Position numbers: made by a program. DNA of 64,000 bases from Escherichia coli (GTDB lineage: Bacteria; Pseudomonadota; Gammaproteobacteria; Enterobacterales; Enterobacteriaceae), in NCBI RefSeq assembly GCF_013122565.1, contig NZ_CP053258.1. One strand, given 5' to 3'. Each line of letters begins with the position of its first letter. Position 1 is the stretch's first letter. This document shows positions 20,801 through 26,800 of this stretch, piece after piece.

Positions 20801-23800
20801 GTTCATGGCCTGTCAGCGCCAGCGAGGATCTCGGTGCAGGTACGCATGTTGAAGTAATTGCGATAGAAGGGATAACGCTGATCATCCGTGCGGCCATCGC
20901 CTGATGCGACGCTGACGCGTCTTATCATGCCTACAAAATATGCCCGAATCGTAGGCCGGATAAGGCGTTTACGCAGCATCCGGCGGTTATGCACCGACGC
21001 CTTATGCGACGCGGGCGCGTCTTATCACGCCTACAAATCTGTGCCCGAATCGTAGGCCGGATAAGGCGCTTGCGCCGCATCCGGCATATAGCCGAGTATA
21101 GGCAAAATTACTCTTCCCGGCCTTTACTCATACTTTTTTGGTCTTCATCCGGATAGTGTTTTTTTAGATATTCCAGGACGTTTTTATTGACCTTGTGTTG
21201 CGTATACACCCACCCTTTCCAGTAATCAGGCTGGTCCAGGTAAACTTCTGGCGGAATGGTGAAATCAGAAAGCGTTAACCATTCGGCTAACAGATCGGGG
21301 TTTCGTTTCTGGATCAACTGCAACAGCATAATCAGCGACATGGCAGAGGCAGGAGCCGTACTATCGCCGCTTAAATACTTCCACACTGTCGACCGGTTCG
21401 AACGAAAAAGGATCGGTAGCAATGCCCGGTCCAGATTCATTTCATTAAAAATCTTCTCAAATTCATTCATTTAAATTTTCCTGCCTGGCGTAAACCTCTT
21501 AAAAATTGAGATTTATCAAAGAAACGCATTTTAGCACACATCAGGAACCGCTTCACGTTTAGTCCAGAAACAGAATTTATTTCGCTTATCAAAACAAGTC
21601 TTTACTCTTTTTTACATTGAAAGAGCACGAAATGATTTCCTTTTTTATTTATAAAAGAAACACTTTTTGTTTCTTATTGGTGGTGTTTACGCTTACACCA
21701 AACAAAAATGCGCTTTACATCACACAAATGGCGGCGTAGATTTCGATCAAATTGCAACGTAGTTTATTTCTTAAAACAATATTATTAGTTTCTTATAGAA
21801 ACATTAATGCGACTTATTTTGATCGAGAGAAAATGAATGAAAACTGTAAACGTAGCTTTACTGGCACTCATAATTTCAGCAACATCCAGCCCTGTTGTTT
21901 TAGCTGGTGATACCATTGAAGCGGCGGCAACAGAGCTTTCAGCCATTAACTCGGGCATGTCGCAATCGGAGATTGAGCAGAAGATTACCCGCTTTTTAGA
22001 ACGCACCGACAACAGCCCCGCTGCATATACCTATTTGACTGAACATCACTACATCCCTTCTGAAACACCTGATACCACTCAGACTCCCCCTGTCCAGACA
22101 GATCCTGACGCAGGACAAAAAACCGTTGCCGCTACAGGTGATGTACAGACAACCGCCCGTTATCAGAGCATGATCAACGCCCGACAGTCTGCGGTAACTG
22201 ATGCCCAGCAAACGCAAATTACAGAGCAACAGGCGCAGATCGTAGCCACACAAAAAACGCTCGCCGCGACTGGAGATACGCAAAATACTGCGCATTATCA
22301 GGAGATGATTAATGCCAGACTGGCGGCTCAAAATGAGGCTAATCAGCGCACTACCACGGAACAAGGGCAGAAAATGAATGCACTGACAACCGATGTGGCA
22401 GCACAACAGCAAAAAGAAAGGGCTCAATACGATAAACAAATGCAAAGTCTGGCGCAGAAGTCTGTCCAGGCACATGAGCAAATTGAAAGTCTGAGACAAG
22501 ATTCCGCACAAACGCAGCAACAGTTAACCAACACGCAAAAACGGGTCGCAGATAACAGCCAACAAATTAACACGCTCAATAACCATTTCGATTCTCTGAA
22601 AAACGAAGTTGAGGACAATCGTAAAGAAGCCAATGCGGGAACTGCATCTGCCATCGCTATCGCCTCACAACCACAGGTGAAAACCGGTGACTTGATGATG
22701 GTGTCAGCGGGAGCGGGAACGTTCAACGGTGAATCTGCGGTGTCTGTAGGAACATCTTTTAATGCCGGAACGCATACGGTACTTAAAGCAGGTATTTCTG
22801 CGGATACACAATCTGATTTCGGTGCGGGTGTCGGCGTGGGATATTCGTTCTAATTTTAACAGCAATTTCTTATTCGCAATTTTCCGCACATTATTTAAGG
22901 TTAACAATGATGAATAGCTCCATTAAATCGTTTTCCCTGCTGGCGGTTATATTACTGGCTGGCTGTAGTTCACCCACTTCCCGCATCGCAGATTGCCAGG
23001 CGCAGGGCGTCAGTCATGACACCTGTTATCTCGCAGAACAGCAGCGTCAGACGGCTATTTTAAGTGCATCCGAGGCGCAGGCATTTAAAAATGCAGAAGC
23101 CGCACAACATGCCCAGGCGGCAAAGAAAGCCATTTATAAAGGATTTGGCGTCACCTTCAGAATGAGCAGTAAGGACTTTGCTTATCTCAATGATTCATTA
23201 TGTGCCATAGATGAGGATAATGCCGATGCCACGGTTTATCAGTCGGGTCTGTATAACGTCATTGTTTATCATCACACAGGAAAAATCGCCTTAATGAAAG
23301 AAGGCCAGTTTGTGGGCTATTTAAAATGAAGGAGCAAAGGAAAATACCCCTGACGCACATTATGATTATCGGTGCGTTTATTTTTGCCTTCTTGCAAGTG
23401 GTGTTATTAGCCTCCCTGGTTCACGCTGTGAATGTTAACAACGAAATCCAGGAAGGCTTATTTCAGTCGGGGCGCATTATGGTAGAAAGTTTGCAGCATA
23501 TTCTTTCGGTGCAAACGGGGATTAATGGGTAAGGATACCGTTACCATTTCCAGAGCAATAGTCACCAGCGTAATTTTCTGGCACAGTTCAGGGTTCTGAA
23601 TATTCGGCTAAGGAGTGGCCATGCTTTTTCCCTTTCGAAAACCTGAAGTACGTCTGCTGAAAAATACCGCTGCGGGCGTCATTTTTTCGGTGAAGTCCGG
23701 TAAAGGATTTCTGCGTCAATGTGTGCTTTACGATCCGCACCCTTATGGGCTTATCCGTTCACTCTGCTGGCAGGATGTCCCGGTAATACGTTTCTGGTCC

Positions 23801-26800
23801 GAGGCCGGCTGCCCCACCTGCGCGGAATTTGTCTACACCGGTTTTGCGGATGATGAACAGGGAGCCGCCCGGTTTTTGTCTGCTCTCGAAAACTGGAATC
23901 GCCCATGGTCTGGCTTTGCGGACGCTTTTGCCGCGCTTACACCGCTGTTCTCATGCCTTGCTGATGGCTATTATCTGCTGGAAGATCGTGAACTTTACCC
24001 GACGGATGGCAATGGGCATTTCTTTTGGGCGGCAACGGACCATAGCGCCAGTAATCCGGCAACCGTTGCCGCCTGGGATCCTGAATATTGCTATTTCTGT
24101 GACACCGCCCCCTGTTTTCTTCTTCCTGGACAGCCGCCATCACATTTTAATCCTGAGCGTGTGACGTTTTATCGCGATAAACCGGAAGCCCGCGCTTTGG
24201 CCTGGTATCTCCCTGATTCCTATCTCTGCGTTCTGCTCGACGGGCACCATAAGGCCACTGCTGCCGCACTGGAAGGGCGACCGCTCAAAACACTGGTACT
24301 CAGCACGGCAACCCGTTTTAATGATGAGCAACAAACCCTGGTATTTTCGGGCGGAGAATGTCTGCACAAAACAGAGCTACTGTGCCACGTTCCCAAACTC
24401 ACTGAGTGGAAAACATTACCGCCCGGCGCATGGGAGAGTTTCGGCCCTGATAAGCACATCAGCCCATCCGAAACCTGGTCAGAAGAGTTGCAGCAGAGCG
24501 TCAGTCGGTACCCTTCACTGGATCAAGCCTGGCAAATTGTTGAGGCCGGGAATTTGAGCGAAACTCGTATTAAGAGCATGATCCAACAAGGTTTGGGGGA
24601 GGATGAACAGGCTGATGTAATTTTGCAGGCGCTGTTTTTCACACACTCGCCGCTTTTTATTGACTTTGCCCGATTCGTTATCAGTCATCCGGCATACGCC
24701 AGTTATCGCCCCCTCACCTTCCGGTTGATGGCGCAAAACCGAACGCCGCAAGCAGATGCTTTTTTTCTGGATTTTGCCATCAATGATGACGGCGAACGTC
24801 CGGAGTTGACGAAAATAATGGACGACTATTTTCGCAAGCCTTAATCACCCCGCCCGATGATGACAGCAGCCGGAGAGATTTTCGATAATCGGGCAGTCGG
24901 CGCTGTCATCGCCAGGGCAGGCATTCGCCAGCGCCAGTAGCTGGTTGCGCATGGATTGCAGTTCTTCGATATGTCGCTCGATCTCCGCTACCTTCTCCAG
25001 CGTACGACGTTTGACGTCGGCACTGTGACGCTGCGGGTCGTTAAACAGATTCACCAGCTCGCCGCTCTCTTCCAGGTTAAAGCCCACCTGGCGCGCCTGG
25101 CGCAGTAAGGTCAGTTCGTTGAGATGCTGCTGCGTGTAGGTTCGATAACCGTTTTCGCTGCGCATCGGCGGCGTCACCAGCCCCTTCTCTTCATAGAAGC
25201 GGATTGCTTTGCTGGTCAGGCCGGTAATTTTTGCTACATCGCTAATGTTCATCGTTCGCGCAACGCCTCCTGTGCTTTATTAAAGGGTTTCAACAGATAA
25301 TCCAGCACGCTTTTTTTGCCGGTGCGGATATCGACCGTCGCCACCATGCCGGGAAATATCGGAAACTGCTGTTTATGTTTATTTTCCAGATGGTTGCTAA
25401 AAGTGCGAATGTATACCCGATAGTAATAAACATCGCGCCGCACTTCATCCTGCACGGTATCCGGTGAAATCACCGCCACTTCTCCCGGCAGGCCGCCGTA
25501 GATGGAGTAATCGTAGGCAGTTATTTTCACCAGCGATTTTTGCCCCGGATGGATAAACGCCACATCGCGCGGGGAGATTTTTGCCTCAATCAGCAGTTGC
25601 TCATCCAGCGGCACGATGGTCATCAGTTTACCACCGGGGGCGATGACGCCGCCAACCGTGGTGACATCAATATCCTGAACAATGCCACGAACTGGCGCAG
25701 TAAAGTTGAGCCTGGTGAGGGAGTCTTCACGCCCACGGATCACCGAACGCTGGGTTTCCACTTCCGCATTGGCTTTCGCTAACTCTTCCCGCGCCTGAAC
25801 GTAGTATTGCGTGCGCACGTCGCTGAGTTTGTTTTCCAGTTCATTGGCCTGGCGTTGCAGGCGCAGTACTTCGACGCTGCTCGCTGCCCCCTGTTTTACC
25901 AGCGGCTGGGTCATCGCCAGTTCACGATTGACCAGACTGATCCCCTGCGTCAGCCCGGTGGTGGCTTTGTTCAGCCCGTCGCGGCGAGTGTTGTACAACG
26001 CCGTTTCCGACTCGATAAGTTCGGGGAATTTATTCAGTTCGTCAGGGAAGACCAGCGGTTTATTGCTCACTTCCGCCCGCAGCCGCGCCGAGGTTGCCAG
26101 CGCAGCGTACAGCCGCGACATCGCTTCCTGGACGTCGGATTCCGTTTTAGTGCGGTTAAGCTGCGCCAGCGGCTGGCCCTGTTCAACTATATCGCCAACT
26201 TTCACGTTCAGATGATACAGAATTCCGCCTTCCAGCGACTGCACTACCTGTTCGCGCCCGGAAGGTTCTACCGTGCCGCTGCCGGTGGTGACTTCATCAA
26301 GCTGGAAGTACCACGCCCAGCCAAGAAAACAGAGCAGCATCACAGCGGTAACGCGTACCGCCAGCGCCGAACGCGGCAGGCGGGGTTCGGTCAGGCCACG
26401 ATTGTATTGCAGTTGTCCGTTCATGCGGCAGACCCCTTATTCTTCTCCTGCAACACCACCCGTCGCGCCGTGGGTTCGCCCTGTTCACGCAAAATGGCCT
26501 CTTTCGCGCCATCCATCACAATCCGCCCCTGATCCATTACGATAATGCGGTCCACCAGTTGCAGCATCGCCGTGCGGTGAGTGGCGATAATCAGCGTGCG
26601 ATGGCCAATCCACTGTTTCAGTTGTTCGATTAAATACGCTTCCGCCATTTCGTCCAGCGAGGCGCTGGGTTCATCGAGCAGCACGATATTGGGTTGAGAG
26701 ATGAGCAGCCGCGCCAGCAGCAGCGTTTGCCGCTGACCACCAGAGAGGCCAAATCCCCCTTCCTGAATCATGTAGTTGAGGCCGTTTTTCTGCTTCTGCA

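What the first reader, a model, noticed from the sequence alone, without database searches (positions are those of the whole stretch)
21108..24844. Uncharacterised 3.9-kb module between ybbJ and cueR encoding a miniature trimeric-autotransporter-like protein and three unknowns
Five ORFs with no counterpart in the K-12 gene order as I recall it: a 120-aa hypothetical protein (minus strand), a 338-aa protein with signal peptide, coiled-coil stalk and YadA-type anchor, a 140-aa lipoprotein, a translationally coupled 68-aa membrane protein, and a 409-aa Cys-rich cytoplasmic protein. The trimeric-autotransporter-like gene is preceded by a strongly AT-rich ~360-bp region (21471-21836), typical of xenogeneically silenced promoters. 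A 338-aa trimeric autotransporter would be unusually short, with essentially no head domain, so it may act as a stalk-only surface anchor. Co-location of two independent surface adhesin systems next to each other is notable.
Basis: partly seen in the sequence, partly recalled or inferred. Interest (0 to 1): 0.6.

Follow-up and report, generated by a model that had tools for sequence, protein, structure and literature searches.

The report
O-island 29 adhesin cassette plus orphan
This stretch is the already catalogued E. coli genomic island OI-29 (a short outer-membrane trimeric autotransporter with a regulator, a lipoprotein and a small membrane protein) plus an unrelated orphan gene. Its main point of interest is that the autotransporter is the protein published as the cytoplasmic "transcription factor GmrA".

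Summary
All five ORFs and the AT-rich spacer are at the stated coordinates. The module is absent from K-12, but it is neither uncharacterised nor a single unit.

P1-P4 (21108-23532) are O-island 29 / S-loop 43 of E. coli O157:H7 and occur together in 1413 of 5426 complete E. coli genomes. P5 (23621-24844) varies independently. Nissle 1917 has P5 alone, EDL933 has P1-P4 without it, and about 700 genomes keep only a frameshifted remnant.

The 338-aa protein has a signal peptide, a coiled-coil stalk and a full YadA_anchor domain (Pfam E 1.6e-11). It is a genuine short trimeric autotransporter (TAA), and it is the shortest of several stalk-length alleles (338-471 aa).

The lipoprotein P3 follows a TAA gene in about 80% of species that carry it. 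It is unrelated to SadB, so it is a candidate helper of a new type. P5 belongs to an unannotated family of about 420-aa proteins with a tentative ParB/sulfiredoxin-like core.

The parts
20865..21122 (.). REP/BIME cluster between ybbJ and P1. It forms the left boundary of the island.
   Evidence: The first 187 nt of the query from 20900 match many places in every E. coli genome. Rfam naRNA4, a REP-derived family, matches at 58.5 bits against a gathering score of 59.5. The sequence was read.
21108..21470 (-). [not shown]
   Evidence: ORF. It is 100% identical to the EDL933 protein and present in 1413 of 5426 genomes. Three weak, independent matches fall on the same N-terminal 3-63 stretch: MqsA HTH (E 0.012-0.12), Xre-like-HTH (E 0.047) and HigA-2 (E 0.6). 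Homologs always lie divergent to a YadA_anchor gene.
21471..21836 (.). AT-rich divergent promoter region carrying six AGAAAC/GTTTCT hexamers. Two pairs form inverted repeats at 21656-21674 and 21788-21802. These are candidate operator sites.
   Evidence: G+C is 0.31-0.37. There are 6 hexamers against 0.24 expected; none of 5000 shuffles reached 6. Their positions are conserved in EDL933, E. whittamii, a Pseudocitrobacter MAG and locus L006. One sigma-70-like site lies at 21714-21742.
21837..21905 (+). P2 signal peptide (residues 1-23, MKTVNVALLALIISATSSPVVLA|G).
   Evidence: The most hydrophobic 19-residue window is residues 6-24 (Kyte-Doolittle 2.05). Every allele keeps this segment once the start codon is placed correctly.
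21906..22076 (+). P2 conserved N-terminal segment (residues 24-80). Possibly a minimal cap or head.
   Evidence: Pairwise column identity among six Escherichia alleles is 0.5-0.7 here, against 0.0-0.3 in the middle of the protein. It is 40% identical to the N-terminus of the 633-aa Pseudocitrobacter TAA. No match in Pfam or the PDB.
22119..22364 (+). P2 internal duplication (residues 95-131 and 140-176, motif ATGDxQxTAxYQxMINAR).
   Evidence: Local alignment gives 22 of 37 identical residues, score 110 against a shuffle mean of 32 (sd 5.6). The motif recurs in other alleles.
22344..22670 (+). P2 coiled-coil stalk (residues 170-278).
   Evidence: Heptad (3.5-residue) hydrophobic periodicity has z=3.4. 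The alignments to the AtaA and Hia anchors begin in this helix. Residues 401-440 of the allele alignment are at least 0.9 conserved.
22671..22853 (+). P2 YadA-type membrane anchor (residues 279-338, ending ...GVGVGYSF) and stop codon.
   Evidence: Pfam YadA_anchor matches 1-60/60 with E 1.6e-11. PDB sequence hits are AtaA 5e-7, Hia 4e-6 and YadA 0.04. Period-2 hydrophobicity has z=4.0. The last residue is aromatic.
22907..23329 (+). [not shown]
23326..23532 (+). P4, 68-aa single-pass membrane protein, translationally coupled to P3.
   Evidence: ATGA overlap with P3. One hydrophobic window at residues 14-32, Kyte-Doolittle 2.65. Conserved with the same overlap in E. whittamii, Pseudocitrobacter and L006.
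23621..24844 (+). P5, 407-aa cytoplasmic protein of an unannotated family. It is not part of the cassette.
   Evidence: There are 358 representative clusters with E<=1e-3 and no Pfam match in any of 50 members. The AF2 model has pLDDT 90.6. The DGHH(K/R)A motif is invariant. The weak top Foldseek hits are all ParB, Noc, SerK or sulfiredoxin. Its distribution is independent of P1-P4.

Best explanation
The region holds two separate things.

**(A) A mobile four-gene surface-protein cassette, P1|P2-P3-P4, which is O-island 29.** P2 is made with a Sec signal peptide. Three copies would assemble their C-terminal 4-strand segments into a 12-strand YadA-type barrel in the outer membrane, displaying a short, acidic coiled-coil stalk with a small conserved N-terminal tip. 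This assembly is inferred from family membership. The stalk varies between strains by module gain and loss (338-471 aa), while the anchor and the neighbouring genes stay nearly identical, as expected for an exposed surface protein. P1 is a small Xre-like helix-turn-helix protein encoded divergently. It most likely controls the shared AT-rich promoter region through the repeated AGAAAC sites (inferred). P3 is a lipoprotein predicted to go to the outer membrane. P4 is a small inner-membrane protein. They are co-transcribed with P2 and probably assist its assembly or anchoring in the envelope. That role is inferred from gene linkage only and would be analogous to SadB or TpgA, without homology to either.

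The published role of P2 as 'GmrA', a transcription factor that binds the fliA promoter, is most likely an indirect envelope-mediated effect on motility. The DNA-binding results probably come from export-blocked tagged constructs.

**(B) P5 is an unrelated, sporadically retained cytoplasmic protein.** It has an N-terminal beta domain, a probable ParB/sulfiredoxin-like nucleotide-handling core (DGHHK motif) and a C-terminal helical-repeat domain. It is decaying in most E. coli lineages.
For: **P2 is a TAA.**
- Full YadA_anchor match, PDB anchor hits, weak NCBIfam EmaA and Vomp anchor hits, and PHROG 'adhesin' at 4.7e-22.
- Signal peptide, heptad periodicity and beta periodicity.
- RefSeq product name 'YadA family autotransporter adhesin'; Sakai ECs_0548 is annotated 'adhesin'; 'Saa-like protein' in the literature.
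- The mature protein is acidic (pI 4.9, net charge -13). The only other matches in Pfam, NCBIfam and PADLOC are low-scoring coiled-coil ones such as SMC and ATG16; none is a recognised DNA-binding fold.
- The alleles show a conserved anchor (at least 0.9) and a length-variable stalk, while P1, P3 and P4 are 95-100% identical.

**P2 is GmrA.** The deletion and cloning primers map exactly to the ORF ends, and the protein is 95.6% identical.

**The cassette is a unit.**
- P1 and P3+P4 are each in 1413 of 5426 genomes.
- The same gene order occurs at other chromosomal sites in Pseudocitrobacter, an unnamed enterobacterium, Rahnella, Yersinia and Enterobacter.
- Of 19 species loci with a full-length P3, 15 have a TAA-like ORF directly upstream and one more has it 1.9 kb away. 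One Rahnella locus has two tandem TAA-P3 pairs.

**Other points.** AGAAAC is enriched and positionally conserved. The genes are transcribed. P5 varies independently; its fold evidence is, and one homolog is named 'ParB-like nuclease domain protein' in UniRef.
Against: - Yang et al. 2018 report gel shifts of the fliA promoter by purified His-GmrA and 7.75-fold ChIP enrichment. They also report a motility defect on deletion in eight strains, with complementation and a gain of motility in K-12. These data were not re-examined here and cannot be dismissed from sequence alone.
- Deleting OI-29 did not change adherence to HeLa or Caco-2 cells. A classical epithelial-adhesin role is therefore unsupported.
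- Deleting z0638 (P3) had no motility phenotype.
- Trimerisation, surface exposure and any P2-P3-P4 interaction are untested.
- Four species carry P3 without a TAA, and P4 is replaced by unrelated small ORFs in Rahnella and Serratia.
- The HTH assignment for P1 rests on sub-threshold matches.
- The ParB/Srx assignment for P5 rests on Foldseek E-values of 0.24-2 and a motif. A sequence profile of that region found no ParB in the PDB.
Confidence: 0.7

Rival explanations
1. P2 is what the literature says it is. GmrA is a cytoplasmic transcriptional activator that binds the fliA promoter directly, and the resemblance to an autotransporter is incidental or reflects a second role.
For: EMSA with competition, ChIP-qPCR, epistasis with fliA, deletion and complementation in eight strains, and a gain of motility in K-12. 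Reviews up to 2024 repeat the assignment. The authors cite a CDD-predicted DNA-binding domain.
Against: - The protein has a typical signal peptide, a full-length YadA_anchor domain and a terminal aromatic residue.
- It is acidic, and no recognised DNA-binding fold was found in Pfam, NCBIfam, PHROGs or PADLOC.
- The stalk is hypervariable while the anchor is conserved.
- It is co-transcribed with envelope proteins.
- The EMSA protein carried an N-terminal His tag ahead of the signal peptide. The ChIP protein carried 3xFLAG after the C-terminal ...GYSF (primer). From established knowledge of Sec and BAM recognition, both would be expected to block export or barrel insertion and so strand the protein in the cytoplasm.
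- The paper never mentions YadA or autotransporters.
Confidence: 0.1
2. All five genes form one functional module, with P5 working together with the adhesin.
For: They lie next to each other on the same strand in this window and in 133 genomes. The P4-P5 gap is only 88 bp.
Against: - EDL933 and Sakai have P1-P4 without P5, and Nissle has P5 without P1-P4.
- P5 is a frameshifted remnant in about 700 genomes.
- In Salmonella the P5 homolog lies between rihA and hscC. Distant homologs are in Clostridia, with unrelated neighbours.
- No P5 homolog appeared in any of the other cassette loci.
Confidence: 0.05
3. P3 is an independent periplasmic defence lipoprotein, for example a lysozyme inhibitor of the MliC/PliC type, and only happens to sit next to a TAA gene.
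Confidence: 0.1
4. The cassette is a decaying, functionless remnant of horizontally acquired DNA.
For: It is accessory, AT-rich upstream, and fragmented in Symbiopectobacterium and in one low-quality assembly.
Against: All four ORFs are intact in 1413 genomes, with 95-100% protein identity for P1, P3 and P4. The genes are transcribed and regulated. Deletion gives a phenotype. The gene order is conserved across genera.
Confidence: 0.05

Closest known systems
[not shown]
   Same: Same locus between ybbJ and cueR and the same gene order. P1 is 100% identical, P2 95.6%, P3 96.4% and P4 97.1%. The published primers map onto the P2 ORF.
   Different: The window also carries the 407-aa P5 gene between P4 and cueR, which EDL933 and Sakai lack. 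The original description of OI-29 lists three genes and omits the small P4 ORF.
YadA / Hia / AtaA-type trimeric autotransporter adhesins (type Vc secretion)
   Same: Signal peptide, coiled-coil stalk, and a 60-residue YadA_anchor domain with a terminal aromatic residue.
   Different: No Pfam YadA head, neck or stalk-repeat domains. The passenger is only about 255 residues. Adherence to HeLa and Caco-2 cells was unaffected by deleting the island.
SadA-SadB (Salmonella/E. coli) and AtaA-TpgA (Acinetobacter): a TAA with a dedicated envelope helper encoded alongside
   Same: A lipoprotein gene directly adjacent to, and co-oriented with, a TAA gene across many species.
Saa and Eib proteins of E. 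coli (short and medium TAAs; the Eibs are prophage-borne)
   Same: Short E. coli TAAs dominated by coiled coil. ECs0548 was labelled 'Saa-like'. PHROG 'adhesin' family hit.
   Different: Phage-encoded relatives are only 33-42% identical, and only over the C-terminal 40-57% of the protein. The cassette is chromosomal and not in a prophage. Ig binding and autoaggregation were not tested.
ParB / sulfiredoxin-fold proteins (ParB, Noc, SerK, Srx), for P5
   Same: A beta-strand, DGHH(K/R)A, helix motif in the same arrangement as the ParB-type GxxR box. The top Foldseek PDB hits are ParB, Noc, SerK and sulfiredoxin. One homolog is named 'ParB-like nuclease domain protein' in UniRef.
   Different: None of those hits is significant (E 0.24-2). 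No Pfam ParBc match in 50 members. No profile hit to ParB in the PDB. The flanking beta and helical-repeat domains are not found in ParB.

Membership tests
Trimeric autotransporter adhesin (type Vc) | C-terminal YadA-type anchor: four beta-strands per chain preceded by a pore-traversing helix | tested here: met
   Pfam PF03895 matches 1-60/60 with E 1.6e-11. Sequence hits to the AtaA, Hia and YadA anchors. Period-2 hydrophobicity z=4.0.
Trimeric autotransporter adhesin (type Vc) | N-terminal Sec signal peptide | tested here: met
   MKTVNVALLALIISATSSPVVLA|G, with hydropathy maximum 2.05 over residues 6-24. Conserved in all alleles. No dedicated signal-peptide predictor was available.
Trimeric autotransporter adhesin (type Vc) | Coiled-coil stalk leading into the anchor | tested here: met
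   Heptad periodicity z=3.4 for residues 170-278. The alignments to AtaA and Hia begin at residue 241-244 in the pre-anchor helix.
Trimeric autotransporter adhesin (type Vc) | C-terminal aromatic residue (beta-signal for BAM) | tested here: met
   The sequence ends ...GVGVGYSF.
Trimeric autotransporter adhesin (type Vc) | YadA head, neck or stalk-repeat Pfam domains in the passenger. These are common but not obligatory. | tested here: not met
   No such Pfam hit. About 42% of YadA-anchor proteins in InterPro also lack a head.
Trimeric autotransporter adhesin (type Vc) | Heat-stable trimer exposed on the cell surface; adhesive activity | not testable with these tools
   Needs SDS-PAGE, protease shaving or immunofluorescence. 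Published data show no change in HeLa or Caco-2 adherence when the island is deleted.
[not shown]
   95.6% protein identity and the same locus. The paper's primers flank and start the ORF exactly.
[not shown]
   No recognised DNA-binding fold was found in Pfam, NCBIfam, PHROGs or PADLOC. The only matches outside the autotransporter anchor are low-scoring coiled-coil ones such as SMC and ATG16. The mature protein has pI 4.9.
[not shown]
   Reported by EMSA and ChIP using N-His and C-3xFLAG constructs.
SadB-type TAA helper lipoprotein (for P3) | Homology to SadB in sequence or fold | tested here: not met
   [not shown]
SadB-type TAA helper lipoprotein (for P3) | Lipoprotein encoded next to, and co-oriented with, a TAA gene | tested here: met
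   Lipobox LLAGC. A TAA-like ORF lies directly upstream in 15 of 19 species loci and in loci L004-L007.
SadB-type TAA helper lipoprotein (for P3) | Promotes surface display of its TAA | not testable with these tools
   Needs a P3 deletion with quantification of P2.
Xre-type helix-turn-helix regulator (for P1) | Recognisable HTH domain | tested here: inconclusive
   Only sub-threshold matches, though all fall on residues 3-63: MqsA_antitoxin (E 0.012-0.12), Xre-like-HTH (E 0.047) and HigA-2 (E 0.6).
ParB/sulfiredoxin fold (for P5) | Core fold with the conserved Gly/His/Arg-Lys phosphate-binding motif | tested here: inconclusive
   [not shown]

The most novel reading that the evidence does not exclude
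P3, with its coupled small partner, may be a third and previously unrecognised kind of dedicated helper or anchor for trimeric autotransporters, after SadB and TpgA. It would be specific to short, head-less TAAs of Enterobacterales. The 2026 global neighbour screen required a YadA head domain and so would have missed it. In this reading, 'GmrA' is a mis-assigned outer-membrane protein whose effect on flagellar gene expression is relayed from the envelope.
Probability: 0.3. Interest if true: 0.55.

Novelty: already known. Interest (0 to 1): 0.35.

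Why it matters
The island itself is catalogued, so its presence here is ordinary. Three things still matter.

1. **Conflict with the literature.** Reviews as late as 2024 treat GmrA as a horizontally acquired transcription factor. Its sequence is that of a secreted, outer-membrane-anchored trimeric autotransporter. 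If the sequence reading is right, the model of fliA control by GmrA needs revisiting, and the real link between a surface protein and motility is unexplained.
2. **A candidate accessory pair.** The conserved TAA-lipoprotein linkage across Enterobacterales offers a testable accessory factor for type Vc secretion. Only SadB and TpgA are known so far.
3. **P5.** It gives a confident structural model for an unannotated protein family of about 360 clusters, found in Escherichia, Salmonella and gut Clostridia.

Tried and rejected
- **SadB homology for P3.** No sequence hit and no fold hit. Rejected.
- **Eib or prophage origin for P2.** Only distant similarity to phage proteins, limited to the C-terminal region. 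Rejected.
- **Anti-phage defence role for any of the five proteins.** PADLOC gave nothing except weak coiled-coil noise for P2.
- **P5 against Pfam, NCBIfam, PHROGs and PDB sequences.** No significant match as a single sequence, as a 50-member profile or as a sub-domain profile.
- **P5 genomic context.** No conserved neighbours in five unrelated loci, so guilt by association gave nothing.
- **P2 passenger (residues 24-222) against PDB sequences.** Nothing.
- **Rfam scan of 20.5-25.5 kb.** Only REP-derived naRNA4 matches.
- **Promoter and terminator scan.** Promoter-like sites did not exceed the shuffled controls, and terminator-like sites exceeded them about twofold (12 against a mean of 5.6).
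- **TraV-like N-terminus of P3.** A weak NCBIfam hit, 19.5 bits against a cut-off of 44.75. Not pursued.

Full report
**1. Observation**

| ORF | Coordinates | Strand | Length | Notes |
|---|---|---|---|---|
| P1 | 21108-21470 | - | 120 aa | |
| P2 | 21837-22853 | + | 338 aa | |
| P3 | 22907-23329 | + | 140 aa | lipobox LLAGC |
| P4 | 23326-23532 | + | 68 aa | ATGA overlap with P3 |
| P5 | 23615-24844 | + | 409 aa from GTG | RefSeq uses the ATG at 23621, 407 aa |

The spacer 21471-21836 has 31-37% G+C. The flanks are cnoX-fetBA-qmcA-ybbJ on one side. On the other side are cueR, a type I secretion system and a 6929-aa adhesin that RefSeq names siiEA.

**2. What the module is**

A megablast of 20900-24900 against 5426 complete E. 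coli genomes found the whole region (at least 80% coverage) in only 133 genomes. Parts of it were found in many more.

Per-gene searches gave these counts:

| Gene(s) | Genomes with a match (of 5426) | Source |
|---|---|---|
| P1 | 1413 | |
| P3+P4 | 1413 | |
| P2, detectable | 1382 | |
| P2, this allele at >=80% coverage | 1027 | |
| P5, any match | 965 | |
| P5, full length | 270 | |

The remaining P5 matches are a roughly 700-bp frameshifted remnant.

- O157:H7 EDL933 and Sakai carry P1-P4 but not P5.
- Nissle 1917 carries P5 alone between ybbJ and cueR.
- The deletion or insertion junction for P5 lies within the last codons of P4 and directly at the cueR stop codon.

So the "module" is two units: a four-gene cassette and an independent gene.

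**3. The cassette is O-island 29, and P2 is "GmrA"**

- Their lambda-Red homology arms match positions 3962-4000 and 5018-5055 of the EDL933 locus without mismatch. These are the exact flanks of the 1017-bp ORF.
- Their cloning primer begins ATGAAAACTGTAAACGTAGCTTTA, which encodes MKTVNVAL. Their 3xFLAG primer ends on the codons for ...GVGYSF.
- The window's P2 is 95.6% identical to that protein.
- In Sakai the gene is ECs_0548, annotated "adhesin". Ogura et al. 2007 listed it as "Saa-like protein, S-loop 43, absent from K-12".

The region is therefore not uncharacterised.

**4. What P2 is by sequence**

- Pfam gives a full-length YadA_anchor match at residues 279-338 (model positions 1-60 of 60, E 1.6e-11).
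- phmmer against PDB sequences finds the anchors of AtaA (5e-7), Hia (4e-6) and YadA (0.04). The alignments start in the helix that precedes the barrel.
- NCBIfam gives weak EmaA and Vomp anchor hits. PHROGs gives an "adhesin" family at 4.7e-22.
- The N-terminus is a typical signal peptide.
- Residues 170-278 show heptad periodicity (z 3.4), and residues 279-338 show alternating hydrophobicity (z 4.0).
- The mature protein has pI 4.9 and a net charge of -13.
- A 37-residue segment is duplicated: residues 95-131 and 140-176, with 22 of 37 identical.
- The only non-autotransporter matches in any library are low-scoring coiled-coil ones such as SMC and ATG16. No recognised DNA-binding fold was found.

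**5. Allelic pattern**

Once the start codons are placed correctly, six Escherichia alleles are 338, 338, 414, 422, 471 and 471 aa long. All have a signal peptide. RefSeq starts two of them too late, which cuts off the signal peptide.

- The signal peptide and the first 50 or so mature residues are conserved (pairwise column identity 0.5-0.7).
- The middle of the stalk differs by large insertions and deletions (0.0-0.3).
- The last 110 or so residues are at least 0.9 conserved.
- In the same strains P1, P3 and P4 are 95-100% identical.

This pattern fits a modular, surface-exposed stalk. It is not the pattern expected of a DNA-binding regulator. The 338-aa form is simply the shortest allele.

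**6. The cassette as a unit**

P3 homologs are confined to Enterobacterales. In Pseudocitrobacter, Enterobacter asburiae and an unnamed enterobacterium, P3 lies directly after a YadA_anchor gene of 633, 293 or 363 aa, at chromosomal sites different from the E. coli one. P1 homologs always lie divergent to a YadA_anchor gene or its remnants.

A scan of one genome per GTDB species returned 47 loci, which I screened with HMMs that I built from the cassette proteins.

- 19 loci have a full-length P3.
- 15 of those have a TAA-like ORF directly upstream. This count includes a divergent 620-aa one in Phytobacter, which I found by inspection.
- One more has the TAA-like ORF 1.9 kb away, and four have none.
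- One Rahnella locus has two tandem TAA-P3 pairs.
- The partner TAAs are 286-745 aa long.

P4 is conserved, with the same overlapping start, in Escherichia, Pseudocitrobacter and L006. In Rahnella and Serratia a different coupled small ORF takes its place.

**7. P3, P4 and P1**

A 2026 preprint states that SadB and TpgA are the only known TAA helpers. Its neighbour screen found no others, but it used only TAAs that carry a YadA head domain. That criterion excludes this family.

*P4.* It has one transmembrane segment.

*P1.* It gives three sub-threshold matches, all on residues 3-63, to Xre-type antitoxin HTH domains. The 366-bp spacer between P1 and P2 contains six AGAAAC/GTTTCT hexamers against 0.24 expected, and none of 5000 shuffles reached six. 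Two pairs form inverted repeats. The positions are conserved in EDL933, E. whittamii, a Pseudocitrobacter MAG and L006. I read P1 as the local regulator. That reading is an inference.

**8. Reconciling with the GmrA paper**

The genetic data are probably sound: reduced motility and fewer flagella on deletion in eight strains, complementation, and a gain of motility in K-12.

The DNA-binding data came from constructs that may not behave like the native protein.

- One carried His6 ahead of the signal peptide and was purified from the soluble extract.
- The other carried 3xFLAG fused after the C-terminal Phe.

From what is established about Sec targeting and BAM recognition, both tags would be expected to keep the protein out of its normal pathway. 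The paper does not mention YadA or autotransporters. It bases the regulator idea on a CDD "DNA-binding domain" that I could not reproduce in four other libraries.

My reading is that P2 is an outer-membrane protein and that the effect on fliA is indirect. I cannot exclude direct binding, and I give it about 10%. Deleting the island did not alter adherence to HeLa or Caco-2 cells, so "adhesin" describes a family here, not a demonstrated activity.

**9. P5**

An exhaustive HMMER search found 358 representative clusters, typically about 420 aa long. A word-indexed search shows close relatives in E. albertii (84-88% identity) and Salmonella (53-55%, a cluster of 2700 sequences). Distant relatives occur in Clostridia and Ruminococcus. 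None of 50 members matches any Pfam family.

The AF2 model built from a 50-sequence alignment is confident (pLDDT 90.6, pTM 0.90). It has three parts:

- an N-terminal beta domain carrying a CPTC motif;
- an alpha/beta middle with an invariant DGH, a nearly invariant second His and then K or R (residues 207-211);
- a C-terminal helical repeat.

Neighbouring genes differ in every locus examined.

**10. Verdict**

The finding is real, but it corresponds to a known island plus an orphan gene. Its residual interest has three parts: the clash between the published function of GmrA and its domain architecture, the conserved TAA-lipoprotein pairing, and the unannotated P5 family.

Noticed in passing
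window 20865-21122: A cluster of REP/BIME elements lies between ybbJ and P1. It matches Rfam naRNA4 at 58.5 bits, just under the 59.5 gathering score, and matches many places in every E. coli genome.
   Followed up: partly
window 25249-49376: The siiEA locus is intact: an HlyD adaptor, an ABC permease/ATPase and a 6929-aa repetitive adhesin. The equivalent locus is reported frameshifted in EAEC 042 and O157. Only a 98-bp remnant is left next to cueR in Nissle and DETEC-E1005.
   Followed up: partly
L015 (NZ_CP116194.1) 2224-3639; L017 (NZ_CP151009.1) 2341-3756: RefSeq places the start of the TAA gene too far downstream in these two genomes (349 and 431 aa). The open frame continues upstream to a 471-aa protein with a normal signal peptide.
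   Followed up: yes
window 24842-24847: The stop codon of P5 (TAA, ending at 24844) directly abuts the stop codon of convergent cueR (24845-24847). There is no intergenic base and no terminator between them. In EDL933 the P4 stop lies 3 bp from cueR.
   Followed up: partly
L018 (NZ_CP184058.1) 2525-3203 and about 700 other genomes: In most E. coli genomes that retain it, P5 survives only as a 679-bp frameshifted pseudogene between ybbJ and cueR. Only 270 of 5426 genomes have it at full length.
   Followed up: partly
L024 (Rahnella woolbedingensis) 3155-7745: Two tandem TAA-lipoprotein pairs (599 aa + 140 aa, then 575 aa + 138 aa). The pair has been duplicated as a unit.
   Followed up: no
L006 4138-6671; L031 4297-5707; L008 3520-5330: The cassette or its remnants sit near qmcA-ybbJ in several genera but at different junctions. 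In L006 it lies between fetA and qmcA, and in Serratia silvae it lies upstream of qmcA, whereas in E. coli it lies between ybbJ and cueR. Either the neighbourhood is old or it is a recurrent insertion site.
   Followed up: no
L038, L040, L043, L045-L050, L058 (Atlantibacter, Buttiauxella): The N-terminal module of P3 (the lipobox plus C..QG(V/I)S(K/R)DTCY) also exists as stand-alone 67-70-aa lipoproteins without any TAA nearby. It gives a weak NCBIfam TraV match.
   Followed up: no
L066/L067 (Salmonella enterica) 5001-6239: The Salmonella homolog of P5 (53-55% identity, a cluster of 2700 sequences) lies between rihA and an Hsp70-type gene (hscC-like) followed by DjlB-type genes. This is a different locus from the E. 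coli one.
   Followed up: no
L004 (Pseudocitrobacter faecalis) 3766-5532: Between the 633-aa TAA and the lipoprotein lies a second 588-aa secreted protein ending ...AGSLSVGW. It has no recorded YadA_anchor hit, and it lies about 2.5 kb from a large serine recombinase gene.
   Followed up: no
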